From assembly GCA_047601445.1 (NCBI GenBank), contig JASGJH010000001.1:8384001-8448000 (forward strand): a DNA stretch of 64,000 bases. Reading direction: 5' to 3'. A program made the position numbers and the translations under genes. This document shows, one piece after another, positions 42,012 to 64,000 of the stretch. Numbering within the stretch: the stretch's first letter is position 1; each line of letters opens with the position of its first letter. This DNA is from Myxococcales bacterium (GTDB lineage Bacteria > Myxococcota_A > Polyangia > Polyangiales > DASUME01). The notes under the pieces are model-generated. The model made no database searches and was not told the DNA's origin. It saw only the letters and a program-made list of their open reading frames with translations.

Positions 42012-42042
42012 TGAACCGGTTTGAACCGACCTGGACTCTAGG
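42012..42042 (+). promoter_or_regulatory. Putative ECF sigma promoter, copy 1
   Basis: TGAACCG-N17-CTCTAGG, 6 nt before ATG 42049; a second TGAACCG at 42022. Confidence 0.6.
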
Positions 42043-42048
42043 GACGGC

Positions 42049-44428
42049 ATGGGTTCGTGTCGGATTCGGTCGAAGCGGGCGCTGGCGAGCAGGACGGCGC
42101 TCGTCATGGCGCTCGGTCTCGCCGCCTGCGGGGAGGGCGAGGCGCCTTCTTCGGCGGCACCGGGCGCGCCGCCGGGGGCGCCCCACCAGGATTCGGACGA
42201 GATTGCCGGCGAAGTCACCGAAGACGCCGGACCTCCGAGCTTCGGTTGCGAGGCCAGACCCCCCGCGGGATTCATCACCCAGTGCTCGGGCTGCCATACG
42301 CTCGGGGGGACGAACCAGGGCGGAAAAATCCCAGACCTGCGGATGTTCGCCGGCACCGAGGCCGAGTTCGTGACCCAGGTGCGTCGCGGTGGCGGAGGGA
42401 TGCCGGCGTTTTCGGAAGCCAAGCTGAGCGACGCGGGACTGCACGAGGTCTACACCTTCCTCCGACAGGGCGACCCCGGGGCGCAGTCGGGTCAAGCGGG
42501 CGGCTCCGGCGGCGAGCAAAACTTCGGGCTAGGCAACGTCAGTCCGCTGTTCGGGGAGAATACGGCCTTGGCTGTGAGCTTCCTGCGCGACGACGGCGTG
42601 TTGATCACGCGAGGCGCGGGCCGCGTGCGTGGGCGTCACGAGCTCGAGGGGACGTACGGACCGTTTGGTCCGCTCTACTTCGAAGGACGCACCTTCGGCT
42701 TCGTGATCGAGGACTTCACGGTGCGCGGCGAGAATCGCATCGTGGTGAGCTATCTGCCGCTGGCGCGTCCGCAAGACAAGACCAACTTTCGCGCCTTCAA
42801 GATCTACGGCGATGGCAACGTCTTTCACGCCAACACGGGCATGGACTCGGATACGCCGCTGCCTTCGCTCGCGCAGGCAGGCAGCGACCCGGCGCAGGAA
42901 TACGCGACCCGCATCGCGGCCTTTGCCCGGGTGCAATCCCATGAGGTCAAAGGCAACGCGCGCACGGGGAAGCCCCTGCAGGCGGGCGAGCTGTTCGAGT
43001 TCGAGTTCGGTGTGTTCATCGAGCCCTCGGCCGTGCGCGCCAACAGTCGAACCGCCTATTACACGGATACCTTCCGCTACCGCGTGGGCCAGGGCGGTCT
43101 CACGATGGAGAACGCCGACACCAGCGGCCAGCTCGGGCCCACGATGGACGCGCAGCTCGGCGGTGCCACCACCGTCGCCTGGGCCTACGCCGAACCGGAG
43201 CTGTACTTCTCCCAACTGGCGTCGAACACTCAGCACGAGCACGTGCAGGCGTTCGTGGATGGCCGCAGGCTGTTTCACACGGACTTCGACACAGGGGCCC
43301 ACAGCGAAGCGGGCAATCCGGCGTTCGACGCCCAAGCCCACAAACTCGGACCGCTATTCGTGAGCCATGCGTGCGTGAACTGCCACGTGCGCAACGGTGG
43401 AGGCGAGACCCTGGTGGGCAGCTTGAGCGAGACCAGCACGATGGCGTTCAAGCTGTACGATGCGGGGGCGGAGCTCGGCAATCAGCTGCAGCTGCAGGAA
43501 GGATTGGCGCGCTCGGTCGCGCCGGAGCAGCGCGAGGTCTCGTTGTCCGACGGAACGCAAATGCTGTCACGTCCGACCTTCGAGGTGCAGGACAAAACCG
43601 GGCGGGAGCTCGCGTACTCGGCGCGTGTGGCGCGTCGCCTGGTGGGGCTCGGGCTGCTCGAAGCGATCGACGAGACCACCCTCCTTTCACGGGCCGATCC
43701 GCAAGACTGCGATGGCGATGGGATCTCGGGCAGGCCGCATCTGGTGGCCGACCCGGAGCGCGGCGTGCTGCGGGTGGGGCGCTTTGGTTGGCGCGCCGAA
43801 AAGGTGAGCGTCGAGCATCAGGTGGCCGACGCGTTGTCGGCAGACCTCGGCGTGTCCTCCCGCGTGCTGCCTGGCAGCGCGCAGGCAGCCGGAGCGGGCG
43901 GGGCCGCTGGCGCGCAGAACGTCGAGCTCGACGATGATGGCCTGCGCCGCCTCACCACGTACATGCGCCTGCTCGGCGTGCCACCGCAGCGCGCGGCGGA
44001 CAGCCCCACCGTGATGCGCGGCGAAACGGTGTTTCACGAGGTGGGTTGTGCGAACTGTCACGTGTCGGCGCTGACCACCGGCAGCTCCCATCCTTTCATC
44101 GAACTGCGTGGGCAGTCGATCCGGCCGTACACGGATTTGCTGCTGCATGATCTGGGGCCCGATCTCAGCCGATGCCAGCGGCCTGCCGGCCCGCGAAGGC
44201 GTGGAGCAGCCGGCCAGTGCGAGCGAGTGGCGCACCGCACCGCTGTGGGGCGTGGGGCTCTCGCAGACCGTGCAGGGCTACGTGGCGCTCCTGCACGACG
44301 GCCGAGCCCACAGCGTGCTCGAAGCGATTCTGTGGCACGGGGGCGAGGCTCAAGCGGCGCGCGAGCGGGTGGTCGCGCTGTCGAAGGCCGACCGTGAGGC
44401 TCTCGTGCAGTTCGTGGAATCGCTATGA
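42049..44428 (+). CDS. Di-heme oxidoreductase (DHOR) family lipoprotein with an extra N-terminal cytochrome c domain; one-base frameshift at about 44167
   Basis: Lipobox LAAC; three CxxCH motifs (CSGCH, CVNCH, CANCH); GRRLFHTDF, GLGLLEAI, GRFGWRA, PYTDLLLHD. Removing the A in CTC-A-GCC gives HDLGPDLAD and joins EWRTAPLWGVG..LLHDGRA..EAILWHGGEA. Confidence 0.87.
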
Positions 44429-45132
44429 GTTCTGTGGCTTACACTCGCGCGGACGTTCTTGCTACGCGTCGGCAGTCGGCTCGAGTAAGGTGGCCCGCCG
44501 TGGCTCCACCCCTGACGAGTCGAGCGCCCTCGGACTTTGGCCTGCGGGCCGATCCGTCCGCTGCGTCGGCCGGGATGTCCGGCCGCGAGCAAGACGACAA
44601 GGCGCGTGTGCGGCAGGTCGAGGCCGTGGAGTCTTCCGAGGGCTTGGATACGGCCGCGGTGTTCCGACGCTACGCGCCCTATGTAGCCAAGGTTGGACTG
44701 CGCATCCTGGGGCGGCGCGATGAGCTCGATGACTTCGTGCAAGATGTCTTCGTCACGGTCCATCGCAAGCTCGACTCGCTGCGCGATGTGGCCGCGTTGA
44801 AGCACTGGTTGGCCACCCTGGCGGTTCATGAGGCGACGCGCAGACTGCGGCGTCGCAAGTTGCGTGCGCTGTTGGGCATGGGCTCGGTGCCGGACTACGC
44901 GGATGCCGCAGACGCCTCGGCTTCACCCGAGCAGCGCGCGCTGTTGGCGCAGGTCTTCTTGGCGCTCGAGGCGCTGCCAGCAGACGAGCACGTGGCTTGG
45001 TCCCTGCGCTACATCGAGGGCGAGACCATGGAGCGCGTGGCGGAGCTGTGCGCCTGCTCGCTCTCCACCGCGAAGCGCCGTGTGGCGGGGGCCGAAAAGG
45101 CGCTCGAAAAGCGGGGACTAAGCCATGTCTGA
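44425..45132 (+). CDS. ECF RNA polymerase sigma factor
   Basis: Region 2 DDFVQDVFV..LKHWL; region 4 LRYIEGETMERVAELCACSLSTAKRRV. ATGA-coupled to the upstream gene; true start may be further downstream. Confidence 0.9.
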   Translation: MSSVAYTRADVLATRRQSARVRWPAVAPPLTSRAPSDFGLRADPSAASAGMSGREQDDKARVRQVEAVESSEGLDTAAVFRRYAPYVAKVGLRILGRRDELDDFVQDVFVTVHRKLDSLRDVAALKHWLATLAVHEATRRLRRRKLRALLGMGSVPDYADAADASASPEQRALLAQVFLALEALPADEHVAWSLRYIEGETMERVAELCACSLSTAKRRVAGAEKALEKRGLSHV

Positions 45133-46273
45133 GCGGCTTGCCGAGCGGCTATCCCAGGCGCGAGAGCACCTCGATGCGGACTTCGGATCCCGTGAGGTCG
45201 AGCGCGGACTCGCGGGTCTGCAGCAGCGGATTCGCCGGCGTCGTCGTGTGACGCAGGCGACAGGTGCGCTGACGGTGCTGACATTGCTGGTGGGCTCCTG
45301 GTTGCTCTTGCCGCGCGCGTCCGAGGTCGCTCGCCAATCCGAGAGCGGGCCGGCGGTGGCTGGCTCGCGTGCGCTGCGCACGGCAGACGGATTGGTTGCG
45401 CGCCTGCTTTCCCCGCAGACCGTGCTGCAGCTGGAACACGAGCGACAGGACGAGGTGAGCTTGCAGCTGGAGCACGGCAGCGGTCACTTCGAGGTCACGC
45501 GTAACCCGCGGCGGCGCTATCGCGTGCGCGCGGGACAAGTCGACGTGGAAGTACTGGGCACCGCCTTTGAGGTCACCAGACAGGCAGCAGGCGCCAGAGT
45601 TCGTGTGGAGCACGGCCTGGTGCGCGTGCGCTGGCCCAGCGGCGAGCAGCTCTTGCACGCTGGAGAGAGCGGCGAGTTTCCTCCCGTCGTGTCCGCGCCC
45701 GTGGCCGCTGCCAGCGAGCCCGTGCAGGAGGTCGAAGCGAGTGTGTCCGCCCGCGAGCCAATCCAAGACGCGGACCTGCTCGTCGATCCGTCGCTGCGCT
45801 CTACTGTGCTCGCCCGGGACCGCTCCCGTGAGCGCTGGCGTGCACTGGAGCGCGCGGGCAAGCATCGCGAAGCATTCGGGTCCCTGGGCGAACGGCCCGT
45901 CGAAGACTTGGCCGGCCTGCTGCTCGCTGCCGATGCCGCGCGCCTGTCCGGACATCCCCAGCAGGCGGCGACGTACCTGCAACGGCTGATGCGTCGCTAC
46001 CCGCGCACCGCTCCGGCACGCCTGGCCGCCTTCACCCTGGGGCGCCTAGCGCTGCGCGAGCTCTCGGATCCTGCGCTCGCCGCCCGCAGCTTCGCGCGGG
46101 CCTATGCGCTCGATCCGAAGGGCCCCTTGGCCGAAGACGCGCTGGCACGGGAGGCCGAGGCCTACCACCGCGCGGGCGACTTGGGACGGGCCCGAAAGGC
46201 TGCTACGCGCTACATCGAGCAGTTCCCAGATGGCGTTCGGCGCGACGACATTTCCCGCTATCTCGCGCCATGA
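45125..46273 (+). CDS. FecR-family anti-sigma/transducer with a C-terminal TPR
   Basis: Single TM helix; LEHGSGHFEV..RYRVRAGQVDVEVLGTAFEV..VRVEHGLVRV; C-terminal helical repeats ending ..RYIEQFPDG. Confidence 0.88.
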   Translation: MSERLAERLSQAREHLDADFGSREVERGLAGLQQRIRRRRRVTQATGALTVLTLLVGSWLLLPRASEVARQSESGPAVAGSRALRTADGLVARLLSPQTVLQLEHERQDEVSLQLEHGSGHFEVTRNPRRRYRVRAGQVDVEVLGTAFEVTRQAAGARVRVEHGLVRVRWPSGEQLLHAGESGEFPPVVSAPVAAASEPVQEVEASVSAREPIQDADLLVDPSLRSTVLARDRSRERWRALERAGKHREAFGSLGERPVEDLAGLLLAADAARLSGHPQQAATYLQRLMRRYPRTAPARLAAFTLGRLALRELSDPALAARSFARAYALDPKGPLAEDALAREAEAYHRAGDLGRARKAATRYIEQFPDGVRRDDISRYLAP

Positions 46274-46301
46274 GCCGCAGCGCGCCAGTGCGCTCCCAGC
46301 A

Positions 46302-47321
46302 GTGGCTCGCGGTCTGGCCCGCCTGCTCCGGAGCCAGACGTGGGGGCTCTTGAGTTTGCTTTGGCTGTGGGTAGCCCATGCTCAAGCGCAGGCCGACACG
46401 GGATCTCACAGGCGCGTCACGATCACCTTCACGAGCTGTGAGGTCCCATCGCCGTCCGAGGTGCGCGCGCTGCTGGCGATCGAGCTGCGCGAGGACCTGC
46501 TGCCCGACGGCACCGGCGAGCTCGAAACGGGCGGGGCCGCCCGCGAGCAACGAGCTGACTACCACGTGCAGGTGCAGTGCAGCGGACACGAGGCTCAGGT
46601 GACCGTGCGCGAGACCGCTGCCACGCGAACTATCGCTCTCGCCAAGGAGCCCGTGGAACTGCGCGCACGCCTGCTCGCGCTGGCCATCGCCGAGCAAGTC
46701 AGTCCGGCTTCGGAGCCGGTGCCCACCAAGGCACAGACAGCCACCACGGAGCCCGCCATCGTGCAGCCCGATCCGCAAGCTGTTGCCCCGCTTCCACGCT
46801 CGACGCCGCGCGCGTCCGCCGCCGAACACTTCGCCTGGGCCGCCCTGCAGCTGCAGGCGAGTCCCTTGCTCGGTCCGGGTGTCACGCTCGGGCTCTCACA
46901 GCGGATTTGGCGCCTCCTTTCCTGGTCGAGCAGTCTCTCCTACAGCTTCGCACGCAGCTCCCTCGACGACGGTGAACTGCGCGTGCAACAGACCTCCGTG
47001 AACACAGGACCTGCGCTGCACCTGGCCTTCAGCGACCTCGTGCTGGAGCTGGGCGCTGGCATGCGGGCCGGCTGGCTCGGACTGCGCGGTGAGCCCGACG
47101 ACGCGGCCCGCGTGCGCGGCAAACGCGTGGACACGTGGCTCGCAGGGCCGTCCCTGTTCGGCGCGCTGTTCGTAAACGCGGGCAAGCGCGGCTTCGGGAT
47201 GCTGGCGCTCGAGCTCGCCTATACGCTGCGCAAGGTACACGCCGATGTTCAAGGAGGCGGAGGACGCACGCTCTCTGCACTATGGGGTGCGGCTTCCCTG
47301 GGGGGAGGTTTCGCGTGGTGA
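46302..47321 (+). CDS. Secreted protein with a C-terminal beta-barrel-like domain
   Basis: Signal ending AHAQA; N-terminal alpha/beta domain; Pro-rich linker; about 8 amphipathic strands; terminal Trp (GGGFAW). GTG start inferred. Confidence 0.65.
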   Translation: MARGLARLLRSQTWGLLSLLWLWVAHAQAQADTGSHRRVTITFTSCEVPSPSEVRALLAIELREDLLPDGTGELETGGAAREQRADYHVQVQCSGHEAQVTVRETAATRTIALAKEPVELRARLLALAIAEQVSPASEPVPTKAQTATTEPAIVQPDPQAVAPLPRSTPRASAAEHFAWAALQLQASPLLGPGVTLGLSQRIWRLLSWSSSLSYSFARSSLDDGELRVQQTSVNTGPALHLAFSDLVLELGAGMRAGWLGLRGEPDDAARVRGKRVDTWLAGPSLFGALFVNAGKRGFGMLALELAYTLRKVHADVQGGGGRTLSALWGAASLGGGFAW

Positions 47322-48256
47322 GGGCGCTCGCGTGCCGGTCGTCGGTCCCGTGGGCTGCGCTCGCGTTGGTGCTCTCCGGCTGCGCGCAGCTCGAGGCCGT
47401 GGTGCTCGTGGTGCGCGACGCGAATGTCGATGAGCCGGCGATCGACGCAGCGACGGAGCCGTCGGATGCAGGCGACGCTGGGTCCCCCGACGCGGGCCGA
47501 GACGCAGGGCCCGACACACGCGGCGTGTGCAGGAGCGGAGGCAGCAAGGACGGCTTCTACGAGACCTTCGACGGACCTGCACTGGACCCGACGCGCTGGC
47601 TCGTCGCCCAGGGCCGCCTCGAGTTCGCCGGCCGAATGGCCCAGGGCGGCTTCCTGGCCGAGAACGTCCGCGTGGAAGGCGGTTCACTCGTGCTCACCGT
47701 GCACGGAGACCTGCACGCTGGCGGACGACGCACGGGGGCTGCCATCGTGACCCGCGATCTGTTCGCGTCGGCGACGTATCAGGCCCAGGGGCACCTGGTC
47801 GGTCCGCCTGGTGTGGAGTTCGCGCTGGCGTCGCTGCGCGATGACGATCGTGAAGGTGGCATCGACATCGCGACTCCGGGCCTGGAGGCTGACCGAGCGA
47901 GCTACGCGCGAGTCCACATGCGCAGCCGCGACGCAGCGGGCACGAGCGAGACACAGTTCGCCTTGGCCGAGACCCTCGACGATGGCGCGAGTCACATCCT
48001 GCGCTTCGATTGGTACACCACGGCCCAGAGCGCGGTGCGCTTCTGGGTCGACGACATGCCGCGCTCTCAACTGGATGAGCATCTGCCGATGCGAGCTGGC
48101 CGCATGTGGCTCCTTGCCTGGGTGCCGGGCGAGGCAGCGGCCGACTTCGACACGGTCGAGATTCGCATCGAGAATGCCTTCGTCACCCCGTTCGGCAATA
48201 GTGGAGATTTATGCCAGGACGGCGAGCTCTCCGGGCCTGGACTGGCACCTCCGTAG
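47318..48256 (+). CDS. GH16-like lipoprotein lacking the catalytic glutamates
   Basis: Lipobox LSGC; FYETFDG..LDPTRW, ENVRVEGGSLVL, TGAAI, H.LRFDW..VRFWVDD jelly-roll pattern. The active-site strand reads GGIDIATP instead of EIDIxE. GTGA overlap with the upstream stop. Confidence 0.7.
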   Translation: MRALACRSSVPWAALALVLSGCAQLEAVVLVVRDANVDEPAIDAATEPSDAGDAGSPDAGRDAGPDTRGVCRSGGSKDGFYETFDGPALDPTRWLVAQGRLEFAGRMAQGGFLAENVRVEGGSLVLTVHGDLHAGGRRTGAAIVTRDLFASATYQAQGHLVGPPGVEFALASLRDDDREGGIDIATPGLEADRASYARVHMRSRDAAGTSETQFALAETLDDGASHILRFDWYTTAQSAVRFWVDDMPRSQLDEHLPMRAGRMWLLAWVPGEAAADFDTVEIRIENAFVTPFGNSGDLCQDGELSGPGLAPP

Positions 48257-48271
48257 GAACGCCACTTTTCC

Positions 48272-48303
48272 TGAACCGATCCGCACCTGCCCTGCCTCCT
48301 AGG
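48272..48303 (+). promoter_or_regulatory. Putative ECF sigma promoter, copy 2
   Basis: TGAACCG-N17-CTCCTAGG, 5 nt before ATG 48309. Confidence 0.65.
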
Positions 48304-48308
48304 CTCGC

Positions 48309-50105
48309 ATGCAGGCACCATCGCCAGTCACTGCCACGGCCCGTTCGCTTTTGGCGAGCGTGCTCGGGCTCTGTCTTGGGGCGTGCTCCGGATCCGTCGA
48401 GGGACCGCTGGGGCCGGGCGCTGACTTCAGCGCCTCCACGAGCGCGGCCCTGCTGGGGCGCACTGGCCCGCGCCGCCTGACCAACACGGAGTACGACAAC
48501 ACGGTGCGCGATCTCCTGGGCACCGAGCTCAACGTGGCCGCCAACTTCGTGGCCGAGGAGGCTGGTGGCTTCGACAACGTGGCTCAGGCACTCGGCATGA
48601 CCCCGAGCCAGTACGAGTCTTACTTCAACGCCGCCGAGACCCTATCGCACGAGCTGTTCGCGGACACTGCGCGCCGTGCGCAGGTCGTCTCGTGCAGCCC
48701 GACCGGGAGCGATGGCGGACCGTGCCTCGAGCAGTGGCTGTCCGAGTTCGGGGGCCGAGTCTTTCGACGCCCTCTGGCGGCCGAAGAGAAAGCGAGCCTC
48801 AAGCAGGCCTTCGGGCGCGCGCTCGCGCTGGGCGAGGCGCCGATGGCAAGTGTGGAGCATGTGCTCGTTGCCATGCTCTCGTCGCCGCAGTTCCTCTATC
48901 GCATCGAGACCGGTGCCGACGTCCAAGCAGTCGTGTCCGCCCGCGAACGAAGCACGAACGCGGGCACGTCAGCCGGCGAGCAAGGTGCCGCGAACGACGG
49001 ACGGGTGTTGCTGGACAGCTACGCGCTGGCCTCCCGTCTCTCGTACTTTCTCTGGAGCACCATGCCCGACGCGGCCCTGTTTGCGAAGGCCGAGGACGGC
49101 TCGCTCATGGATCCCGTGGTGCTTCGCGCAGAGCTCGCGCGCATGCTCGACGATCCGCGTGCCGGCTCCTTGCTGGACAACTTCGCCGCGCAGTGGCTGA
49201 GCTGGCGCGAGCTCGCCCAGCACAAGGTGCTCGCGGCCCGCTACCCCGAGTTCGATGACGCCCTGCGAGACTCGATGCTGAAGGAAGCGCGAGCCTACGT
49301 GTCGGAATTTCTATTCGAGGACCGGCCCCTCAAGGACTTCCTGCGAGCCCAGCTGAACTTCGTGGATCGACGACTCAGCCAACTCTACCAACTCGATCTG
49401 GCCCTGCCGTCGTCCGAGGAACTCGTGCGCGTCGAAGCAGGCGGGTCCGCCTGTGAGCCTGGCGTCGACAACCCTAACGGCGACCGCCGTGGCTACCTCG
49501 GCCTCGCGGCGTTTCTCACGGTGTCCTCGTTCGCCCAGCGCACCTCGCCCACGCTGCGCGCCAAGTGGGTGCTCGAGGAGCTCATGTGCAGCGTCGTCCC
49601 CCCGCCGCCACCCAACGTCACAGCTCAACTCGAGGACACCGCGAACGCTGCCGCCAGCATCGAGAACGTGCGCGAGCGCCTGGAGCTACACCGCAGCGAT
49701 CCGGGTTGCGCGAGCTGTCACGCGCGGCTCGATCCGATCGGGCTCGGTCTGGAGTCGTTCGACGCCATCGGTCGGAGCCGCACGCACTACGAGAACGGGG
49801 ATTCGATCGACACCCTCGGTGAGCTGCCGGATGGGCGCACCTTCGATGGACCGGTGGAGCTCTCCGCCATCCTGGCCGACGATCCACGCTTCGAGCCCTG
49901 CGTGGCGCGCAAGCTCTTGACCTACGCCCTCGGCCGCACCCTCGGCAGCGAGCCCGACCTCGTGGCGCACACCGTGGCCTCCTACAAGCCGCAGGGCACC
50001 CTGCGCGCGATGATCGAGAGCATCGTGCTTGGCGACGCCTTCCGGTACCAGGCCCAGTCGACGCAGGCGGAGCCGCCCGCGCGCAACGCAGGGAGTGCAC
50101 CATGA
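48309..50105 (+). CDS. DUF1592-containing protein (DUF1587/1595/1592/1588/1585; planctomycete cytochrome-c-like)
   Basis: RRLTNTEYDNTVRDLLG, RVFRRPL, SPQFLYR, LASRLSYFLWSTMPD, TSPTLRAKWV, CASCH..DPIG..LESFDAIG, YALGR; lipobox LGAC. Confidence 0.92.
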   Translation: MQAPSPVTATARSLLASVLGLCLGACSGSVEGPLGPGADFSASTSAALLGRTGPRRLTNTEYDNTVRDLLGTELNVAANFVAEEAGGFDNVAQALGMTPSQYESYFNAAETLSHELFADTARRAQVVSCSPTGSDGGPCLEQWLSEFGGRVFRRPLAAEEKASLKQAFGRALALGEAPMASVEHVLVAMLSSPQFLYRIETGADVQAVVSARERSTNAGTSAGEQGAANDGRVLLDSYALASRLSYFLWSTMPDAALFAKAEDGSLMDPVVLRAELARMLDDPRAGSLLDNFAAQWLSWRELAQHKVLAARYPEFDDALRDSMLKEARAYVSEFLFEDRPLKDFLRAQLNFVDRRLSQLYQLDLALPSSEELVRVEAGGSACEPGVDNPNGDRRGYLGLAAFLTVSSFAQRTSPTLRAKWVLEELMCSVVPPPPPNVTAQLEDTANAAASIENVRERLELHRSDPGCASCHARLDPIGLGLESFDAIGRSRTHYENGDSIDTLGELPDGRTFDGPVELSAILADDPRFEPCVARKLLTYALGRTLGSEPDLVAHTVASYKPQGTLRAMIESIVLGDAFRYQAQSTQAEPPARNAGSAP

Positions 50106-51574
50106 CCAGGCCCCAGCACAGCTTCTCGCGCCGCACGCTCCTGCGTGGCGTCGGTGTGTGTCTCGCACTGCCTTATCTCGAAAGCTTGGCCCCGCGCTCA
50201 CTTGCTTCGGCGCAAGCCGCGCCCGCCAAGCGCTTCATCGCCAGCTACTTCCCGAATGGCGCCGCCGCCGACTACTGGCCCGTGAAAGGCAGTGGCGCGG
50301 GCTGGACACTCTCGCCGCTGCTGGCGCCGCTCGCCGCCCACAAACGCAGGCTCGTCGTCTTTTCCAACCTGGAGAACTACAGTCCGATGCAGGACAACCA
50401 GGGCGTGGAGCCGAGCCATGCGCGCCTGTGCGGGGCGTTTCTTACCTGCGTCGACTCCGACGCCGTGCGCGAGAAGCTCAAGGTGGAGATGGCGAATGGC
50501 ATCTCCATGGACCAGGTGATCGCCGCGCAGATGAAGACCACGCTGCCTTCGCTGGAGCTCGGTCTTTCCACCCTCAATAGCTACGAAGACGGTCGCCATC
50601 CGTCGCTCTCCCGCAGCATCGCGTGGGCGAGCACGACTCAGCCGCTCTACAAGGAGGTCAATCCCCAGGCCGTGTTCGATCGTCTGGTGGCCGCCGGGGC
50701 GGTGGACGCGAGCGGGGCGGCGGACCCCCAAGTGGCCGCGCAGGCAGCCAGGCGCAAGGCGCTCAAGCTGTCGGCCCTGGACTTCGTGCTCGAGAGCGCC
50801 CGCGGTCTGAGCGGCAAGCTCGGGCGCGAAGACAAGCCCAAGCTCGAGGAGTTCTTGAGCTCGGTGCGAAGCCTGGAAGAGCGCGTGCGCGGACTCTCGG
50901 ACGCCATCGCGCAGCAGAGCGCGCCCATGTGTGAGGTGATGGATCGCCCGCCGCGAGCCTACGCCGTCAACGTCAGCGAGGGCTACGATCGCGGCACCCA
51001 CGCCGCCGTGATGAACGACCTCATCGTGATGGCACTGCGCTGCGACGTGACCCGCGTGATTACGCACATGCTCGACGACGCCCGCAGCGACTTCGTGTAC
51101 GACCACCTGATCAACCGCAAGTTCAGCGCCGAGGGCTCTACCGAAGGCTCCGGCAAGGTGGGTGGCTTTCACGGACTGCAGCACGCCGGTGACAGCAACG
51201 ACGGCTACGCGACCATCAACTGGTGGTTCAGCCAGCAGATGGCCGAGCTATGCAGCAAGCTGGAGGCAGTGCAGGAGGGGGAGGGGAGCCTGCTCGATCA
51301 CACCCTCATCCTGTACGGCGGCGCCATGCATGGCAGCGATCACGACGGCCGACCCCTGCCCATGGCCCTCATCGGCGGCAACGGCGCGGGCATCCGCACC
51401 GATCAGCACGTGGACTTCAGCGCCAGCGCGGCCGGGCGCCCCCTGCGGGATCTCTATTTCACCATCTTGAACGGCTACTTCGGCCTCGATGTACCGAGCT
51501 TCGGCGAGCATGTGGCGGGGATTCCCAACAAGCTGATCAGCGAAATTCTCGAGCTGACCCTGCCTTTTTTCTGA
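50102..51574 (+). CDS. DUF1552 (HXXSHH) family protein, Tat-exported
   Basis: SRRTLLRG..LALPYLESL Tat leader; YFPNG; SMDQVIA; SLELG; NPQAVFDRL; ALRCDVTRV; FHGLQH; SLLDHT. Confidence 0.92.
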   Translation: MTRPQHSFSRRTLLRGVGVCLALPYLESLAPRSLASAQAAPAKRFIASYFPNGAAADYWPVKGSGAGWTLSPLLAPLAAHKRRLVVFSNLENYSPMQDNQGVEPSHARLCGAFLTCVDSDAVREKLKVEMANGISMDQVIAAQMKTTLPSLELGLSTLNSYEDGRHPSLSRSIAWASTTQPLYKEVNPQAVFDRLVAAGAVDASGAADPQVAAQAARRKALKLSALDFVLESARGLSGKLGREDKPKLEEFLSSVRSLEERVRGLSDAIAQQSAPMCEVMDRPPRAYAVNVSEGYDRGTHAAVMNDLIVMALRCDVTRVITHMLDDARSDFVYDHLINRKFSAEGSTEGSGKVGGFHGLQHAGDSNDGYATINWWFSQQMAELCSKLEAVQEGEGSLLDHTLILYGGAMHGSDHDGRPLPMALIGGNGAGIRTDQHVDFSASAAGRPLRDLYFTILNGYFGLDVPSFGEHVAGIPNKLISEILELTLPFF

Positions 51575-51603
51575 ACCGCTTTTGGCCTTCCTGCCCTCCT
51601 AGG
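51572..51603 (+). promoter_or_regulatory. Putative ECF sigma promoter, copy 3
   Basis: TGAACCG-N17-CTCCTAGG, 5 nt before ATG 51609; geometry identical to copy 2. Confidence 0.65.
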
Positions 51604-51608
51604 AGGGC

Positions 51609-52586
51609 ATGCGCACCCTCTTCCTCGCCTGCTGCCTCTCTCTCGTCGCCTGCACGGATGCCGACTCTCCTGGGGAATCGCTCGATGCCGGGTCTCCCCC
51701 CACCAACGACGGTGGCAAGGAGGAGGACGACGACACGGCTCACGACGCTGCTCCCGAGGACACCTCAGACGATCCGGGCGAACAAGACGCCGGTCGCGAC
51801 GCGGGCAAGCCGGACGGCAAATCCGACGCGGGCGCGGGCCAAGACCTGCCCGGTTGGAAGCTCGTGTGGAACGACGAGTTCGACGGTCCTGCCGGCACCG
51901 TGCCCGACAAGACCCGCTGGGTCCCCGAGAACAAAGGGGACGGCTTCGGCAACAACCAATTGGAGTTCGACACCAATCGCGCCGAAAACGCCGCGCTCGA
52001 CGGCAAGGGGCAGTTGATCATCACCGCCCGCAAGGAAGAGTACATGGGCCGCCACTACACCTCGGCGCGCCTCAAGACCCAGGGCAAGTTCGAGCACAGC
52101 TACGGCCGCTACGAAGCGCGCATGCAGATCCCCTTCGGCCAGGGCATGTGGCCCGCCTTCTGGATGCTCGGCACGAACATCGGAAGTGCGGGTTGGCCCG
52201 ACTGCGGGGAGATCGACATCATGGAGAACATCGGCCGCGAGCCCACGCTGGTGCACGGCACGCTGCACGGCCCTGGCTACTCGGGCGGCAACGGCATCGG
52301 CGCCTCCTCCTCACTGCCCAAGGACGCCCACTTCAGCGACGCCTTCCACGTGTACGCCATCGAGTGGGAGAAGGAGGTCGTGCGCTGGTATGTCGACGGC
52401 GAGCTGTATCAGACCCGCACTCCCAAGGATCTGCCGGGTCAAAGTAAGTGGGTCTACGATCACTCGTTCTTCATCCTGCTGAACTTGGCCGTCGGCGGGC
52501 AGTGGCCGGGCAATCCCGACAACACCACGACGTTCCCGCAACAGCTCAAGGTGGACTACCTGCGGGTCTACGATCGCATGCCCTGA
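51609..52586 (+). CDS. GH16 endo-beta-1,3-glucanase (laminarinase-type) lipoprotein
   Basis: Lipobox LVAC; WKLVWNDEFDG, YTSARL, GMWPAFWMLG, WPDCGEIDIMEN (intact ExDxxE), FHVYAIEW, LNLAVGG.WPG. Confidence 0.95.
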   Translation: MRTLFLACCLSLVACTDADSPGESLDAGSPPTNDGGKEEDDDTAHDAAPEDTSDDPGEQDAGRDAGKPDGKSDAGAGQDLPGWKLVWNDEFDGPAGTVPDKTRWVPENKGDGFGNNQLEFDTNRAENAALDGKGQLIITARKEEYMGRHYTSARLKTQGKFEHSYGRYEARMQIPFGQGMWPAFWMLGTNIGSAGWPDCGEIDIMENIGREPTLVHGTLHGPGYSGGNGIGASSSLPKDAHFSDAFHVYAIEWEKEVVRWYVDGELYQTRTPKDLPGQSKWVYDHSFFILLNLAVGGQWPGNPDNTTTFPQQLKVDYLRVYDRMP

Positions 52587-52591
52587 ACGCT

Positions 52592-52609
52592 CCTACCCGC
52601 TTGGGTAGG
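52592..52609 (+). terminator. Stem-loop after the GH16 gene
   Basis: CCTACCC-GCTT-GGGTAGG starting 6 nt after the stop; no U-tract. Confidence 0.4.
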
Positions 52610-52696
52610 GCTGGCGTTGGGGAGGGTGTTCGGAGTGCGAAAGCATCGGCGCACGCCCCCAACATCGCGTACATCAGGGCCCACCAGGCCCAACGC

Positions 52697-53458
52697 ATGC
52701 GTCGTATCTTCCTCGCGCTCTTCACCGCCATTCTGTTCCTTTCAAGCTTTCCACTCGGCGCAGAGGCCGAGGACACCCAAGACGACGAGGCCCGTGCCCT
52801 GTTTGAAGCAGGCCTGGTCGCCTATGACAGTCAGCGCTTCGAGAGCGCGCTGATGTACTTTCGTCGCTCCCTCGCCTTGAGTGGCCGCGCCAAGCTGCAT
52901 TACAACGTGGGCCTTGCTCTCGAGCGCCTCGGGCGCGCTGAAGAAGCGATCGATAGCTATTCGCTCTACCTGCAGGCCATCCCCGACGCTGCAAATCGCC
53001 TCGAGGTCGAGGGGCGCATTGGATCGCTCGAGAAATGGGTCCCAGAGTCGAAGCCGGGCGCCGTCCCCGAGGCCGTCCAAAGCCCGCCGACTGAAGTGGT
53101 CCAACCGCCGGCTTCCGAGCAAGCGCCGACCGCGGCTACGCAGGGTCCAACGCGCAGACGCCGTACGGGCCTTGCGCTGGTGGCGAGCGGCGGAGCACTC
53201 CTCGCAGCCGGTGGCGTGTTCGTCGGCCTGGCACTGCGCGCGCAACACGAAGTCGAAGCTGCGCCGCAGGGGGGCTACTGGCAGCACGTCGCATCGGACA
53301 ACGACCGTGCCCTCACCTTTTCCGTGGTGGGCTTTTCCCTGCTCGGCACCGGTGTCGTCAGCGCCGTGCTGGGTGGCGGACTCTGGTTTCGCAATCGTCA
53401 CATCACGGTCGACGTCGCCCTCGCACCGCGCGCGTTTTGCCTGCAAGGACGTTTCTGA
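52697..53458 (+). CDS. TPR protein with a hydrophobic hairpin and C-terminal GRF
   Basis: Signal peptide; EARALFEAG..LHYNVGLALERLGR.EEAI..Y..YL; Gly/Ala-rich helix pair; ends CLQGRF. Confidence 0.82.
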   Translation: MRRIFLALFTAILFLSSFPLGAEAEDTQDDEARALFEAGLVAYDSQRFESALMYFRRSLALSGRAKLHYNVGLALERLGRAEEAIDSYSLYLQAIPDAANRLEVEGRIGSLEKWVPESKPGAVPEAVQSPPTEVVQPPASEQAPTAATQGPTRRRRTGLALVASGGALLAAGGVFVGLALRAQHEVEAAPQGGYWQHVASDNDRALTFSVVGFSLLGTGVVSAVLGGGLWFRNRHITVDVALAPRAFCLQGRF

Positions 53459-55167
53459 TGAGCACGCGGTTCGAGCTCGCGCGACCCCACGCGCTGTTTC
53501 TGGGTGTCACCGCACTGGCGCTGAGCGCCTGCACGCCCACCATTCCCGAGGGGCGCTTCGCTTGCGATGACCACCACGCATGTCCGCCCCGCTTCGAGTG
53601 TCGCGAGGACAACCTGTGCTACTCGCGCGACTTCAAGCGCGACGATCACGGCGGCGACGGCATGGATGGCGGCACCGACGCTTCCAACCTGCCGACCGAC
53701 GCGGGCGATCAGCCCCAATCTTCCGGTGACGGCGGTGATGCCATGCCCGACGCGGCCGTGGACCTGGGAACGGCCCCCCTGCGCGTGGTGCACGCCGCGA
53801 TCGCCGACGACGTGAATAACCTGATGCTCCAGGTGGATGAGCTCCCCGCCTTTCCACTCGCCTACGGCGACGTGAGCGCCTTCGTCCCTGGCGAACCACG
53901 CAGGGTGCGCATTCGCGTCAGCGACGCAGGCCAGGTCGTGAGGCTGGATACGCAGTTGGAGTTGACGGCCACCTCCGCCATGGTCCTGCTGAGCGCGCCC
54001 GCGGGGCTGAGCATGCGCGTGATCCCGGTGCCGGCTCCGCCGGTCGATGGCTCCCGTATCGCTGCCGTCAACGCCATGTCGGTTGGCCTGTCCGTGGTGT
54101 TCGATCAGCAAGACGCGATGCCCGACCCGAAGAGTCTGAACGCTCTCGAAGCGGAGCCCACGCTGGATCTCGACGGCGTTAGCAAGCGCTTGCTCGTTGG
54201 CTTCGATCAGGGCGGCTTTATCGCAGGCTTCTCCGGATTGTCGCTGGACTCGGGATCCATCTTGGTGCTGCTCGGTGACTCCCGGCGTCCGCTCATCGAC
54301 CCGCGCGGTCCACGCGCTGTGGTCCTGCACGGCCGAGACGCGCTCTCGCTCTTGTCCGATCCGCTGGTGACCCTGGTCCACTTGTCCACGGCGCCCGTTC
54401 GAGCGATCGAAAACGAGGCCGCGGCCGCCGTCTACCCGATCACGCTGTGCGTCACGGATCGCTTCCAGCGTCTGAACACCGGAGACTTTCAGTTCAGTGA
54501 GATCACGCCACAGATCCCCGTGTCGATCGAAAACGGGGATCGCTTCTACGTGCTGCCAGTGGCCGAGTCGGATTGCAGTGCTCGGCCCGTCGCCGAGTTT
54601 GCCGTGGCGAGTGCCAACCTTCAGAAGGGACGCAGATACCTCGTTCCATTCACCGGCGACAAGGACCGCATGGTCATCCCCGACGGCGGCCTCCCGCAGG
54701 CGGAGGCCGGGCCCGTGCCCAACCTGGTGGCATTCCCCGAAGCAGATCGCGAAGGGATCTCGGAGAACTCACGCCTGGTGACGTTTGGACATGCGGCCAT
54801 GCTGACCACGGAGCCAGACACGCTGCTTCGCTTCACGCCCCCGGCACCGAACGCCGCCGTGATGTTGGATCGCGCCGACACCGCAGGCCAAGAGCAGGCG
54901 GGCAGCGGACAGGATGCGGGCAGCGACGAGCAGCAGTCGATCATGATGGAGTACATTTCTGCGAAGGACCTGCCGTCAGGCGCTCAGCTGGCCAGGCTCC
55001 ATTTCGACGTGACCACCCACGGCAGCCGCTCGGTGTTCATGATCGCAACGGACCCGCTCGTCTGGCACGCGAACACCGTCCCGGAGCTGATGCTGACCGT
55101 GATCGAGACCTTCGACGACCAACCCTGGACGTCCAACGTCGTTCAAGGAACCCTGGAACCGAACTAG
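53458..55167 (+). CDS. Lipoprotein with an N-terminal Cys knot and DUF4397-like beta domains
   Basis: TGATG coupling; lipobox LSAC; FACDDHHACPPRFECREDNLC; repeats LRVVHAA, IAAVNA, VTLVHLS, VTFGHAA. Confidence 0.68.
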   Translation: MSTRFELARPHALFLGVTALALSACTPTIPEGRFACDDHHACPPRFECREDNLCYSRDFKRDDHGGDGMDGGTDASNLPTDAGDQPQSSGDGGDAMPDAAVDLGTAPLRVVHAAIADDVNNLMLQVDELPAFPLAYGDVSAFVPGEPRRVRIRVSDAGQVVRLDTQLELTATSAMVLLSAPAGLSMRVIPVPAPPVDGSRIAAVNAMSVGLSVVFDQQDAMPDPKSLNALEAEPTLDLDGVSKRLLVGFDQGGFIAGFSGLSLDSGSILVLLGDSRRPLIDPRGPRAVVLHGRDALSLLSDPLVTLVHLSTAPVRAIENEAAAAVYPITLCVTDRFQRLNTGDFQFSEITPQIPVSIENGDRFYVLPVAESDCSARPVAEFAVASANLQKGRRYLVPFTGDKDRMVIPDGGLPQAEAGPVPNLVAFPEADREGISENSRLVTFGHAAMLTTEPDTLLRFTPPAPNAAVMLDRADTAGQEQAGSGQDAGSDEQQSIMMEYISAKDLPSGAQLARLHFDVTTHGSRSVFMIATDPLVWHANTVPELMLTVIETFDDQPWTSNVVQGTLEPN

Positions 55168-55298: not shown

Positions 55299-57389
55299 AT
55301 GGCAGCGAAAATTATCCGCGCGGCTCTGCCGTCCACCCTTTGGCTCCTGAGTGCTTGCGCTAACGACCCCGGGCTCCCGGACGTCAGCGAACGAGAGGAT
55401 GCTGCCCTGGTGGGTCGCCTCGAACAGTACGAGGTGGACCACGGAGACGGCTCCTATCGCAACGAGTACGCCCTGAGGCTCGACGACGGGACGCACGTGG
55501 AGCTGCAGTTCGCGGTCGAGCCGGAGCTGCATTCTGGCAGCAGGGTGGTGCTCAACGGTCGCTATGTGTCCAACGACGAGCCGCTCTCCCTGCGCGACAG
55601 TTTGCGCCTGGGACCGACGCGCTTTGCCGTGGATGACGCGAGACTGGAGCGCGCTGCGGTGGGCATGGTCCAGCAAGGACTCGTGGCTCCTCCTGACGTC
55701 ACGGTCACGGGCGCGGTGGTGCTGCTGAACTTCAAGGGCAAGAACGCGCAAAACTATACGGCCGATACCGCTCGCAAAGAGCTCGCCCAAGTTCACGACT
55801 ACTACCTCGAAATGTCCTACGGCTCGTGGACCATGGATACGGACGTTCTGGGTCCCTATCTCGTCGACGCTCCCTCTCAGTGTGATCTCGACACGCTCGG
55901 CACCCTTGCGAAGGCCACCGCGCGCGCCCAGGGCGTCGACATCGACCAATACGATCACGTGGGCGTGAAGATCGCCGGGCTCGACGGCCTCGATTGTCCG
56001 TGCGGCGTTGCGTACGTGGGCAACACGCCGGCGCAGGGTGGCATTTCGAACGGCGGCACCAGCTTGTACACCTGCTCCGGCGCCAACGCCTACGCGCACG
56101 AGATGGGACATGGCATCGGCCTCAGCCACTCGAGCACGGCGCCATGCAATGGGGTCGCCTATCGCCCGGGGCTCTCGGGCTGCAACATCGTCGAGTACGG
56201 CAATCGCTTCAACACCATGGGCGGCGGCCTCGGTCACTTCAACGCGATGCAAAAAGCAACGCTGGGCTGGCTCAACGGCTGCAACATCCAGCGCGTCAGC
56301 AAGGACGGCGAGTTCGATCTGACGGCGATTCAGGTCGGCGTCGACAACCAGGCCCAGGGGTTGCAGATCGACACCGGGGACACGATGAGCGGCGGACCGC
56401 TCTATTTCTACGTCGAGTATCGCAATCCAACGCTGGCCAAGTTCAATGCGCTCAAGGACAACGGGAGCCCGCGCGAGCGCGGACCGGGCCTGCACGTGAC
56501 GGTGTCACGTGACTTCAGGTCCACGCAGGGGGAAGGGCGCACCATTCTCATCGACGCGTCCAACGGCCTCAAGGGATTGCCGTCCGATGGCTCCGATGCC
56601 GACCAGGCCAAGGGCGATCCGCGCATGGTGGTGGGCGACGTGTTCAAGCCCAACGCCAAGGTAACGATCGAATTCGTCTCGCAGACGGACAAGGTCGCGC
56701 ACGTGAAGGTGACCTTTGCGGGTGGCGGAAGCGGAAGCAACCAGTGTCAGTCCAGTGCGGTTCCACCCGGTCCGCCCGATGTTCCCGAGGGCTATGCGGC
56801 CACGCTCTTCCAGGATTGCGACTACGAGGGCGGATGGTCTGTGAGCTTGCCCGAGGGCAAGTACACGACCGCCGAGCTCAAGGCGCTGGGGGTGAAGGAC
56901 AACGATGCTTCCTCCTTGGTGCTCGCGCCGGGCTACGACGCCCTGCTTTACGCAGATGACAACTTCGGCGGAAAGTCGTCCACACGCTCCAGGTCCCTGA
57001 GCTGCTTCACCAAGATCGACATGAACGATGCGCTCAGTTCGATCGAGATTCGCTCCAACGGGATGGCCCCTGGTCCCGACGCCGGCACCGGCCCCGATGC
57101 CAGCGTCGCTCAGGACGCAGGCGGTGGTGGCGGTGGCGACGGCGACATGACGCCTGCTGGCGACGGCGACGCACACGGGGGCGACGCCAGCACGCGAGCT
57201 CCGGACGCGAGCGCGGAAGAGCCCTCCGACGGCAGCGAAGACGACGGAAAGCCAGCCCATCATGGTGGCTGCAGCGTGCACCCGCAACGCTCTGCCGGTA
57301 CCCCATGGGCCTTGCTCGGGCTCGGCGTTCTCCTGGGCCTCGGACGCCTTGCTGCAACTCGAGCGCGCCGGCGGCTGGTCCGGGCGTGA
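55299..57389 (+). CDS. M11/gametolysin-like metalloprotease with a beta/gamma-crystallin domain and MYXO-CTERM-type tail
   Basis: Lipobox LSAC; HEMGHGIGLSH; EYGNRFNTMG; FYVEYR; crystallin motifs LFQDCDYEG..DASSL..LYADDNFGG..NDALSSI; GGCSV-TM-RRR tail. Confidence 0.87.
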   Translation: MAAKIIRAALPSTLWLLSACANDPGLPDVSEREDAALVGRLEQYEVDHGDGSYRNEYALRLDDGTHVELQFAVEPELHSGSRVVLNGRYVSNDEPLSLRDSLRLGPTRFAVDDARLERAAVGMVQQGLVAPPDVTVTGAVVLLNFKGKNAQNYTADTARKELAQVHDYYLEMSYGSWTMDTDVLGPYLVDAPSQCDLDTLGTLAKATARAQGVDIDQYDHVGVKIAGLDGLDCPCGVAYVGNTPAQGGISNGGTSLYTCSGANAYAHEMGHGIGLSHSSTAPCNGVAYRPGLSGCNIVEYGNRFNTMGGGLGHFNAMQKATLGWLNGCNIQRVSKDGEFDLTAIQVGVDNQAQGLQIDTGDTMSGGPLYFYVEYRNPTLAKFNALKDNGSPRERGPGLHVTVSRDFRSTQGEGRTILIDASNGLKGLPSDGSDADQAKGDPRMVVGDVFKPNAKVTIEFVSQTDKVAHVKVTFAGGGSGSNQCQSSAVPPGPPDVPEGYAATLFQDCDYEGGWSVSLPEGKYTTAELKALGVKDNDASSLVLAPGYDALLYADDNFGGKSSTRSRSLSCFTKIDMNDALSSIEIRSNGMAPGPDAGTGPDASVAQDAGGGGGGDGDMTPAGDGDAHGGDASTRAPDASAEEPSDGSEDDGKPAHHGGCSVHPQRSAGTPWALLGLGVLLGLGRLAATRARRRLVRA

Positions 57390-63498: not shown

Positions 63499-64000
63499 CG
63501 CAGGCCTCCTGGCATACGAGACGCCGGTGCAGCGCGGAAGAACAGATAGCGCTCGGCCAGCTCGCCAGCCAGCAGGGTCCCCAGCATCGCGATCGCGATG
63601 GGCGCCCACGATGTGCCTGGCGAGCTCTGTGAGAGCAGCTCCCACGGCAAGAGCACGCCGCCCACGAGCAGCAAGCCGAAGCGCAACATGGTCACGCGCG
63701 AGAGCTCACCGCGCATCACCAGGGCCATCCGCTTCATGGCGGTGGTACGGCGGTCGCTCGCGTAGCTCAGGGCGTGTCCCTCGAACACCAGCTTGAAGGC
63801 CGCGCAACCCATGATCACCCAGTGCAAGAGCGACGGGCGGTGCGCCGCACGCGCCTCTGCGCCGAAGGTCGATACGGCGAGGACCGAGGCACAGCCCAAC
63901 AGCAGGGTCGTGCTGAAGAACTTGAGCCCGGTCTGCGTGAACGACCACTGTTCTCGACGCGTCGCCACGTAGACCATCACCGAACAGAACACGCCGAGTA
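63495..64000 (-). CDS. DmsC/YnfH-family molybdoenzyme membrane anchor, 3' part only
   Basis: [15 protein letters not shown], several TM helices and the terminal [11 protein letters not shown]...MPGG motif; coupled to the nitrate reductase gene. Confidence 0.78.

What the first reader, a model, noticed from the sequence alone, without database searches (positions are those of the whole stretch)
42012..55167. Candidate undescribed beta-glucan-sensing / redox system: DHOR cytochrome - ECF sigma - FecR - barrel - inactive GH16 - DUF1592/DUF1552 - active GH16
Seen: ten co-oriented, mostly overlapping or abutting genes. They encode a tri-heme DHOR lipoprotein, an ECF sigma, a FecR-TPR protein, a barrel-like protein, a GH16-like lipoprotein without catalytic Glu, a heme-motif DUF1592 protein, a Tat-exported DUF1552 protein, an intact GH16 glucanase, a TPR-GRF protein and a DUF4397-like lipoprotein. 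Known: ECF/FecR pairs perform cell-surface signalling, normally via a TonB-dependent receptor, and none is present here; DHOR, DUF1592 and DUF1552 lack an established function. Inference: a signalling cascade using a non-TonB receptor that detects beta-1,3-glucan (e.g. fungal/oomycete wall or laminarin) and induces a hydrolase plus two heme-c redox modules. This would suggest a role for these DUFs in carbohydrate oxidation.
Basis: partly seen in the sequence, partly recalled or inferred. Interest (0 to 1): 0.88.

Follow-up and report, generated by a model that had tools for sequence, protein, structure and literature searches.

The report
Dead-glycosidase sugar sensor of myxobacteria
This myxobacterial gene cluster pairs a sigma factor and its anti-sigma with a predicted small outer-membrane barrel and a glycosidase-fold lipoprotein lacking its catalytic residues, which likely act as a sugar receptor that would switch on a glucanase and heme proteins; the same design recurs with other dead glycosidases across Myxococcota.

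Summary
Mostly confirmed, and broader than reported. The conserved unit is eight genes: DHOR cytochrome, ECF sigma, FecR-TPR, barrel, dead GH16, DUF1592, DUF1552 and active GH16. The last two genes are not conserved with it, and DHOR is frameshifted here but intact in relatives. The site is conserved in relatives, even before an unlinked GH16 orthologue. A blind search found the related TGAGCC before 51 of 73 cognate ECF genes (48 of 368 controls). The barrel models as 8-stranded with a TolB-N-like domain. It lies beside FecR-TPR in 75 of 80 Myxococcota loci, and 20 of 20 barrel-first loci have FecR-TPR; no TonB receptor was found in either set. The neighbouring lipoprotein varies. Versions with a shared N-terminal motif have lost catalytic acids in GH16, GH44, GH114 and GH29 (one GH29 ambiguous). 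Best reading: a modular cell-surface signalling system without a TonB receptor, using pseudo-glycosidase receptors, here likely for beta-1,3-glucan. Binding, contacts, induction and the redox role are untested.

The parts
42012..42039 (+). Promoter-like site P1, TGAACC-N18-CTCT, 9 nt before the DHOR ATG (leaderless transcript predicted)
   Evidence: exact match before DHOR in 6 of 6 loci with upstream sequence
42049..44428 (+). Tri-heme lipoprotein: cytochrome c, unnamed middle domain, DHOR. Frameshift near 44165-44171 in this sequence; intact in relatives
44425..45132 (+). ECF sigma factor (start at 44425, overlapping the DHOR stop, or at 44575)
   Evidence: 61-71% identity to orthologues
45125..46273 (+). 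Predicted anti-sigma: N-terminal cytoplasmic part, hydrophobic segment, FecR domain, C-terminal YbgF/BamD-like TPR. G001 keeps the TPR but has lost most of the FecR domain
46302..47321 (+). Predicted 8-stranded outer-membrane beta-barrel with N-terminal TolB-N-like domain and Pro-rich linker; no Pfam family; start uncertain (46302-46356)
47318..48256 (+). Pseudo-GH16 lipoprotein with N-terminal motif (CAQLEAVVLV); GIDIA in place of EIDIE; predicted receptor
48272..48299 (+). Promoter-like site P2, TGAACC-N18-CTCC, 9 nt before the DUF1592 ATG
   Evidence: exact in 6 of 9 loci, within 2 mismatches in 9 of 9
48309..50105 (+). DUF1587/1595/1592/1588/1585 (PSCyt3) lipoprotein, one CxxCH
50102..51574 (+). 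DUF1552 protein with twin-arginine motif
51572..51599 (+). Promoter-like site P3, TGAACC-N18-CTCC, 9 nt before the GH16 ATG
   Evidence: same site before the unlinked orthologue in G006
51609..52586 (+). GH16 lipoprotein with intact EIDIME, closest to endo-beta-1,3-glucanases
   Evidence: 2hyk, E 9e-87
52592..52609 (+). 7-bp hairpin after the GH16 stop, without a T run; possible end of the unit
52697..53458 (+). TPR protein ending in GRF; 5 paralogues in this genome; probably not part of the system
53458..55167 (+). Lipoprotein of no known family; probably not part of the system
   Evidence: not found in orthologous loci

Best explanation
The locus is likely a cell-surface signalling cassette that needs no TonB-dependent receptor: a GH16-fold lipoprotein that has lost both catalytic glutamates would bind a beta-glucan (likely beta-1,3-glucan), a predicted 8-stranded barrel would pass the signal to the FecR-TPR anti-sigma, and the freed ECF sigma would transcribe three conserved promoter-like sites in front of the DHOR cytochrome, the DUF1592/DUF1552 pair and a glucanase gene with intact catalytic motif. 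Shown from sequence or calls: gene content, synteny, loss of the catalytic residues, the promoter-like motif and its position, barrel/FecR-TPR linkage across Myxococcota, and no linked TonB receptor found. Predicted by models: the GH16 fold and the barrel with its TolB-N-like domain. Inferred and untested: the lipoprotein's N-terminal motif docks on the barrel and displays it at the surface; the barrel's periplasmic domain contacts the TPR; ligand binding releases sigma; P1 gives positive feedback on the sensing genes; the ligand is beta-1,3-glucan (about 0.6 given the rest); the heme proteins act in oxidation or electron transfer on the glucan or its products (about 0.35). The four-part module (sigma, FecR-TPR, barrel, motif-bearing lipoprotein) appears general, with the lipoprotein's passenger domain exchanged between cassettes.
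For: Synteny in two families. Motif exact before 6 of 6 DHOR and 6 of 9 DUF1592 genes, before the ECF only where it is the first gene (1 of 9), and at 3 or more mismatches before the window's other seven genes. In five relatives, 5 of 6 genome-wide hits are in the locus and the sixth precedes the unlinked GH16 orthologue, 58.6% identical. Blind search: TGAGCC before 51 of 73 other cognate ECF genes against 48 of 368 control regions, with the bipartite form peaking at spacer 18 (31 of 73; 0-9 at other spacers). Barrel in 75 of 80 FecR-TPR loci. FecR-TPR in 20 of 20 barrel-first loci. No TonB receptor in either set. Both Glu lost in 10 of 10 motif-bearing GH16-like proteins and kept in 11 of 11 relatives without the motif. 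The same pattern in GH114 (2 dead with motif, 2 intact without), GH44 (2 lack the Glu of NEP) and GH29 (L120 lacks the Asp and neighbours a GH29 that keeps it). Beta-1,3-glucanase-type cargo in G000, G114, L035 and G006, and a GH158-like gene in G001.
Against: No binding, contact or expression data. The closest intact relatives of the pseudo-GH16 are an uncharacterised clade, and its best structural match is a lichenase, so its ligand is not fixed. The window's copy has lost a cleft Trp that 7 of the 10 motif-bearing proteins keep. Only 38 of 58 genes after a barrel are lipoproteins and 19 of those 38 match the motif, which was defined from these same sequences; the window's own copy matches it only loosely. 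GH29 L102 may keep an Asp shifted by one residue. Many passenger domains are not glycosidase-like (RCC1, FG-GAP, LRR, or no Pfam hit). Genome-wide motif counts are no higher than controls; only position is informative. The genome holds 18 TonB receptors that could act in trans, and my TonB profile recovers only 13 of 18 in leave-one-out. DHOR is frameshifted in this sequence. The GH158-like match is weak (E 4e-9) and that gene has no motif of its own.
Confidence: 0.62

Rival explanations
1. Same signalling design, but the ligand is not beta-1,3-glucan. It is another glycan recognised by the uncharacterised GH16 clade from which the receptor derives, such as mixed-linkage glucan or a prey or plant polysaccharide.
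For: Nearest intact relatives carry the bulge-less EIDIE motif and have no close solved structure. The best structural match is a lichenase, Z 22.6. L035 has the motif before a divergent esterase-like lipoprotein.
Against: Cargo hydrolases are beta-1,3-glucanase-like in two different families, and the unlinked GH16 orthologue keeps the motif.
Confidence: 0.18
2. The barrel and dead-GH lipoprotein are outputs or accessories (adhesin or substrate holder). The anti-sigma senses the signal by another route: directly in the periplasm, through a TonB receptor encoded elsewhere, or through kinases as proposed for ECF267.
For: 18 TonB receptors elsewhere in the genome. The ECF267 description proposes phosphorylation. 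15 of 58 cassettes have an opposite-strand gene after the barrel.
Against: Near one-to-one linkage of barrel and FecR-TPR in both directions. G001 lost most of the FecR domain but kept TPR, barrel and lipoprotein. The barrel has a conserved N-terminal domain predicted to face the periplasm.
Confidence: 0.15
3. A chance cluster of common myxobacterial genes with a decaying GH16 and a broken DHOR.
For: The genome has 11 DUF1592 loci, 3 DHOR genes and over 60 sigma-like ORFs. DHOR is frameshifted.
Against: Gene order is conserved across two families at 50-70% identity for most core genes (barrel 32-44%); DHOR is intact in relatives; the dead GH16 is conserved as an open frame; the motif is conserved.
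Confidence: 0.03

Closest known systems
ECF267 (Casas-Pastor et al. 2021, PMC7826278; main-text passages and supplement part 28 read)
   Same: Myxobacterial ECF with a FecR-like, TPR-fused anti-sigma at +1 and no TonB-dependent receptor.
   Different: That description names no barrel, no lipoprotein and no regulon, calls the promoters 'not conserved', and proposes kinases. Here a barrel, a motif-bearing lipoprotein and a conserved promoter-like site are found.
FecI/FecR/FecA cell-surface signalling (ECF239-243; PMC7826278 passages; mechanism recalled)
   Same: ECF sigma, FecR-domain anti-sigma, adjacent outer-membrane barrel gene, and output genes matched to the ligand.
   Different: The adjacent barrel is predicted 8-stranded with a TolB-N-like domain, not a TonB-dependent transporter. 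The anti-sigma ends in TPRs. Recognition appears to be handed to a separate lipoprotein.
ECF21 of Bacteroidetes (PMC7826278 supplement passages)
   Same: [quoted passage not shown]
   Different: Different phylum and predicted promoter (GCAACC/CGTCT). The passages seen mention no FecR-TPR and no dead-glycosidase lipoprotein.
SigI/RsgI of Clostridium thermocellum, RsgI6-GH10 (PMC10328401 passages)
   Same: A glycosidase-fold domain serves as polysaccharide sensor for an alternative sigma that induces the matching hydrolases.
   Different: There the sensor is fused to the anti-sigma in a single-membrane cell. Here it is a separate, apparently exchangeable lipoprotein that must signal across two membranes.
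Cbp2D/Cbp2E of Cellvibrio japonicus and PSCyt-CBM proteins (PMC8981238, PMC12542752, PMC5615132, PMC6004670; passages)
   Same: DUF1587/1592-type heme proteins tied to polysaccharide use; Cbp2D carries DUF1587 and c-type cytochrome domains and matters for growth on cellulose.
   Different: Here the protein is a lipoprotein without a CBM, paired with DUF1552 and placed behind an ECF-type promoter next to a glucanase. I did not compare its sequence with Cbp2D.

Membership tests
FecIRA-type cell-surface signalling | ECF sigma with FecR-domain anti-sigma at +1 | tested here: met
   (PF04542, PF08281, PF04773)
FecIRA-type cell-surface signalling | Linked TonB-dependent receptor | tested here: not met
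   nearest PF00593 match is 287 kb away; 0 of 80 and 0 of 20 related loci with a profile that recovers 13 of 18 in leave-one-out
ECF267 | FecR-like anti-sigma fused to TPR at +1, no TonB receptor | tested here: met
ECF267 | Sigma scores in the ECF267 group profile | not testable with these tools
   the classification's HMMs are not held; NCBIfam gives only the ECF superfamily
ECF267 | Protein kinases in the gene neighbourhood | not tested
   no systematic kinase count was made
ECF21 | Anti-sigma with outer-membrane barrel fused or at +2 | tested here: met
   barrel at +2
ECF21 | Bacteroidetes range and GCAACC/CGTCT promoter | tested here: not met
   relatives are Myxococcota; motif is TG(A/G)ACC-N18-CTCY
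GH16 (gene 47318-48256) | Beta-jelly-roll GH16 fold | tested here: met
   3i4i Z 22.6, rmsd 2.3, 201 aligned; Foldseek E 9e-13; model from a 4-row alignment, mean pLDDT 68
GH16 (gene 47318-48256) | Catalytic ExDx(x)E | tested here: not met
   GIDIA; both Glu absent in 10 of 10
GH16 endo-beta-1,3-glucanase (gene 51609-52586) | EIDIME motif and closeness to laminarinases | tested here: met
   activity itself not tested
8-stranded OmpA/OmpW-like barrel | Eight antiparallel strands and C-terminal aromatic residue | tested here: met
   model pLDDT 83; OmpW Z 17.4, rmsd 3.2, 167 aligned; ends in W
SigI/RsgI | Glycan sensor fused to the anti-sigma | tested here: not met
   sensor is a separate gene; anti-sigma is FecR-TPR
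DUF4397 (last gene) | Pfam DUF4397 match | tested here: inconclusive
   no Pfam or NCBIfam hit; a distant fold match is not excluded

The most novel reading that the evidence does not exclude
Myxococcota run a distinct class of trans-envelope signalling: ECF sigma, FecR-TPR anti-sigma, an 8-stranded barrel transducer and a plug-in lipoprotein receptor repeatedly made by killing a glycosidase (GH16, GH29, GH44, GH114). It works without TonB receptors, through a shared leaderless promoter TG(A/G)(A/G)CC-N18-C(A/T)CY. Each dead enzyme names the sugar that induces the neighbouring DUF1592/DUF1552 or DHOR genes, which would give substrates for these heme families of unknown function.
Probability: 0.5. 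Interest if true: 0.93.

Novelty: new variant of a known kind. Interest (0 to 1): 0.86.

Why it matters
Known FecR-type signalling crosses the outer membrane through TonB-dependent transporters. The 2021 ECF classification noted a myxobacterial group lacking such a receptor and left its input open. This work supplies a candidate transducer, a candidate receptor slot and a candidate promoter, so the question can be tested directly. Repeated conversion of unrelated glycosidases into candidate receptors suggests a modular sensor that could be re-aimed by swapping one domain. It also gives named inducers to test for the DUF1592/DUF1552 and DHOR heme proteins, and suggests how soil myxobacteria may detect fungal or algal glucans.

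Tried and rejected
No sequencing run was listed for 43500-45500, so the frameshift and expression could not be checked with reads. A single-protein scan of genome contigs found no relative. The ESM Atlas gave no usable hit for the DHOR middle domain. The 120 listed of its 254 homologues show only DHOR and cytochrome c Pfams, no CBM, so a CBM fusion was not supported. My first motif form (ending CTAG) was over-fitted to this genome and replaced by CTCY. The exact motif was not found at the cassettes of most other ECF loci; they use TGAGCC. A large dispersed regulon in this genome was rejected: 5 hits with ATG at spacer 18, 3 in the locus, against 0-4 at other spacers. A ten-gene system was rejected. 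Earlier-findings look-ups by sequence and by words returned nothing. Paper searches returned nothing; others listed no paper whose title or abstract start describes the module.
Full report
Setting. The window lies in a 9.5 Mb single-contig genome. Source names on the closest FecR homologues point to Polyangiales, Myxococcota. GC content across the locus matches the rest of the window.

Observation. The ten genes are present and the domain calls hold, with the corrections given in the observation check. DHOR is frameshifted near 44165-44171; its true end overlaps the first ECF ATG. Orthologues in G001, G002 and G006 lie in open frames of 780-793 aa. Two of 11 DUF1592 genes in this genome are also split, so an assembly indel is the likelier cause (inference; no reads were listed).

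Extent of the unit. The dead-GH16 profile matched 6 of 401 genomes of the order, in two families, and 7 metagenome loci. L036 repeats the G114 locus, and L035 gives near-identical scores to it, so these are not independent. The order DHOR-ECF-FecR-barrel-dead GH16-DUF1592-DUF1552 holds in G006, G003, G104, G114, L035 and L038 as far as each contig reaches, and shorter contigs agree. The intact GH16 follows in G114 and L035. G001 has ECF-FecR-barrel-dead GH16-DHOR, then a GH158-like gene. The TPR-GRF and last lipoprotein genes were found in none of these, and a hairpin follows the GH16 stop.

Promoter. Three near-identical sites lie 9 nt before the DHOR, DUF1592 and GH16 ATGs. With G001, G002, G003 and G006 the consensus became TG(A/G)ACC-N18-CTCY. 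It is exact before 6 of 6 DHOR and 6 of 9 DUF1592 genes; the other three read TGAGCC or TGAGCT. It is exact before 1 of 9 ECF genes, the one that starts its operon, and absent before the GH16 genes of G114 and L035, which directly follow DUF1552. In 58.7 kb of loci not used to derive it, spacer 18 gave 7 plus-strand and 3 minus-strand matches; other spacers gave 0, except 4 at spacer 20 and 2 at spacer 13, which I did not examine. In five relatives the pattern with ATG had 6 hits, no more than the 6 of the reversed control, but 5 were in the locus and the sixth precedes an unlinked GH16 orthologue. In G104 and four genomes where the dead-GH16 profile found no match, 1 of 5 hits was in the locus and 4 were not before related genes. 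A blind word count upstream of 73 other cognate ECF genes returned TGAGC as top word. TGAGCC was in 51 of 73 against 48 of 368 control regions, with a second box C(A/T)C(T/C/A) at spacer 18 in 31 of 73, often about 36-45 nt before the called start. I read this as the family's autoregulated, often leaderless promoter, of which the locus uses a variant. No start site was mapped.

Barrel. The model (20-row alignment, pLDDT 83) has eight strands and an N-terminal alpha/beta domain. The barrel matches OmpW, OprF and OmpA (Z 16-17). The N-terminal domain matches the TolB N-domain weakly (7mx5, Z 8.2, rmsd 3.5, 98 aligned). The family has no Pfam; all 30 ESM Atlas hits lack a common Pfam family and the three shown are Myxococcota clusters. 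An ECF was found in 77 and a barrel in 75; two of the five misses end at the contig edge and one was later recovered with an N-domain profile. Conversely, a barrel search hit 17 of 301 phylum genomes. I fetched 20 of the 21 places outside G000: all 20 have FecR-TPR and 19 an ECF; one repeats an earlier locus. That profile was built from FecR-linked barrels, which may bias it. No TonB receptor was found in either set.

Receptor slot. In 58 loci with a gene after the barrel, 43 are on the same strand, 38 are predicted lipoproteins, and 19 of the 38 match C-x(1-7)-[GDA][DEPTAN][VL][LF]. The controls are 8 of 234 other lipoproteins in the same loci, several flanking a cassette, and 14 of 1593 in G000. 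The motif was defined from these sequences; it recurred in 4 new barrel-first loci. Passenger domains vary: GH29, GH44, GH114, beta-helix, LamG, heparinase-like, RCC1, LRR, or none.

Loss of catalysis. The window's protein models as a GH16. Ten of 10 motif-bearing homologues lack both Glu, while 11 of 11 relatives without the motif, chosen by short length from 150 hits, keep EIDxE. In GH114, motif-bearing L150 and L093 lack the acids of EPDN and DEEC that L081 and L128 keep. In GH44, L103 and L090 lack the Glu of NEP; L090 keeps the second Glu. In GH29, L120 lacks the Asp and lies beside a GH29 that keeps it, while L102 is ambiguous. Which residues are catalytic in these families is recalled, not taken from a call.

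Cargo. DUF1592 lies in 9 of 78 and 5 of 19 other cassette loci, against 1.8 and 0.4 expected at the mean density of six genomes, or 4.7 and 1.0 at the highest; kin are not independent. In G000, 4 of 11 DUF1592 genes sit beside an ECF with a barrel-like gene, judged by eye from gene calls. Several of these DUF1592 genes have a TGAGCC-type site upstream and several do not.

Mechanism. See Best explanation. The weakest steps are the physical contacts, which are untested, the ligand, which is inferred from cargo, and the chemistry of the heme proteins.

Literature. I read passages of PMC7826278 (main text; supplement file 1, which is cut when stored, part 28 and term hits), PMC8981238, PMC12542752, PMC5615132, PMC6004670 and PMC10328401. 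ECF267 is the nearest described group; ECF21 shows an anti-sigma with a barrel; RsgI6 shows a glycosidase-fold sensor; Cbp2D links DUF1587-type proteins to cellulose. Searches listed no paper on the four-part module or its promoter, judged from listings. The library omits most subscription papers, and unseen parts of the ECF supplement may bear on this. An earlier AI note on this genome describes a related module with propeller lipoproteins; I confirmed its gene layout but count it as a lead only.

Verdict. A real, conserved system. It works like cell-surface signalling but fails the FecIRA membership test. It is best filed as a new variant with a fair chance of being a class of its own. Interest 0.86.

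Noticed in passing
window 29218-37159 and 55299-57389: Two secreted proteins with weak reprolysin-like metallopeptidase hits flank the locus. The 2,390-aa one appears to continue in another frame near 36365-36390, a second likely indel; both end in a myxobacterial sorting-type tail (label recalled).
   Followed up: no
G000 about 5,132,600-5,144,200: Distant variant cassette: ECF, TPR anti-sigma, three barrel-like genes and five propeller-like lipoproteins starting CGDxxx(V/I)G.
   Followed up: partly
G000 2197608, 4079587, 5745571, 8475696, 8877120, 9416923, 3659072, 5948320: Further ECF/TPR anti-sigma cassettes in the same genome; some have TGAGCC-N18-CACT upstream.
   Followed up: partly
L035:3548-4759 (minus strand): Esterase-like lipoprotein divergent from DHOR with the exact motif upstream; no Pfam hit at 1e-4; possible extra regulon member.
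   Followed up: partly
L010:7718-8581: G001 anti-sigma has lost most of the FecR domain but keeps the TPR, barrel and dead GH16.
   Followed up: partly
L046:569-1438: A different ECF gene lies just upstream of the unlinked G006 GH16, so a second regulator cannot be excluded there.
   Followed up: no
P0002, P0005, P0008-P0012, P0015: An apparently uncharacterised GH16 clade (NHEIDIEMPG), often in tandem domains, with no close solved structure; the likely source of the receptor.
   Followed up: partly
window 42480-43190 (DHOR residues about 145-380): Unnamed conserved domain between the cytochrome c and DHOR parts; 254 homologues, no Pfam, no Atlas hit.
   Followed up: partly
G123, G575, G102: DUF1592 matches range from 0 to 40 per genome among five genomes of the class.
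   Followed up: no
window 57501-59702 and 61273-63645: Two molybdopterin oxidoreductases; the second looks like an assimilatory nitrate reductase (by recall).
   Followed up: no
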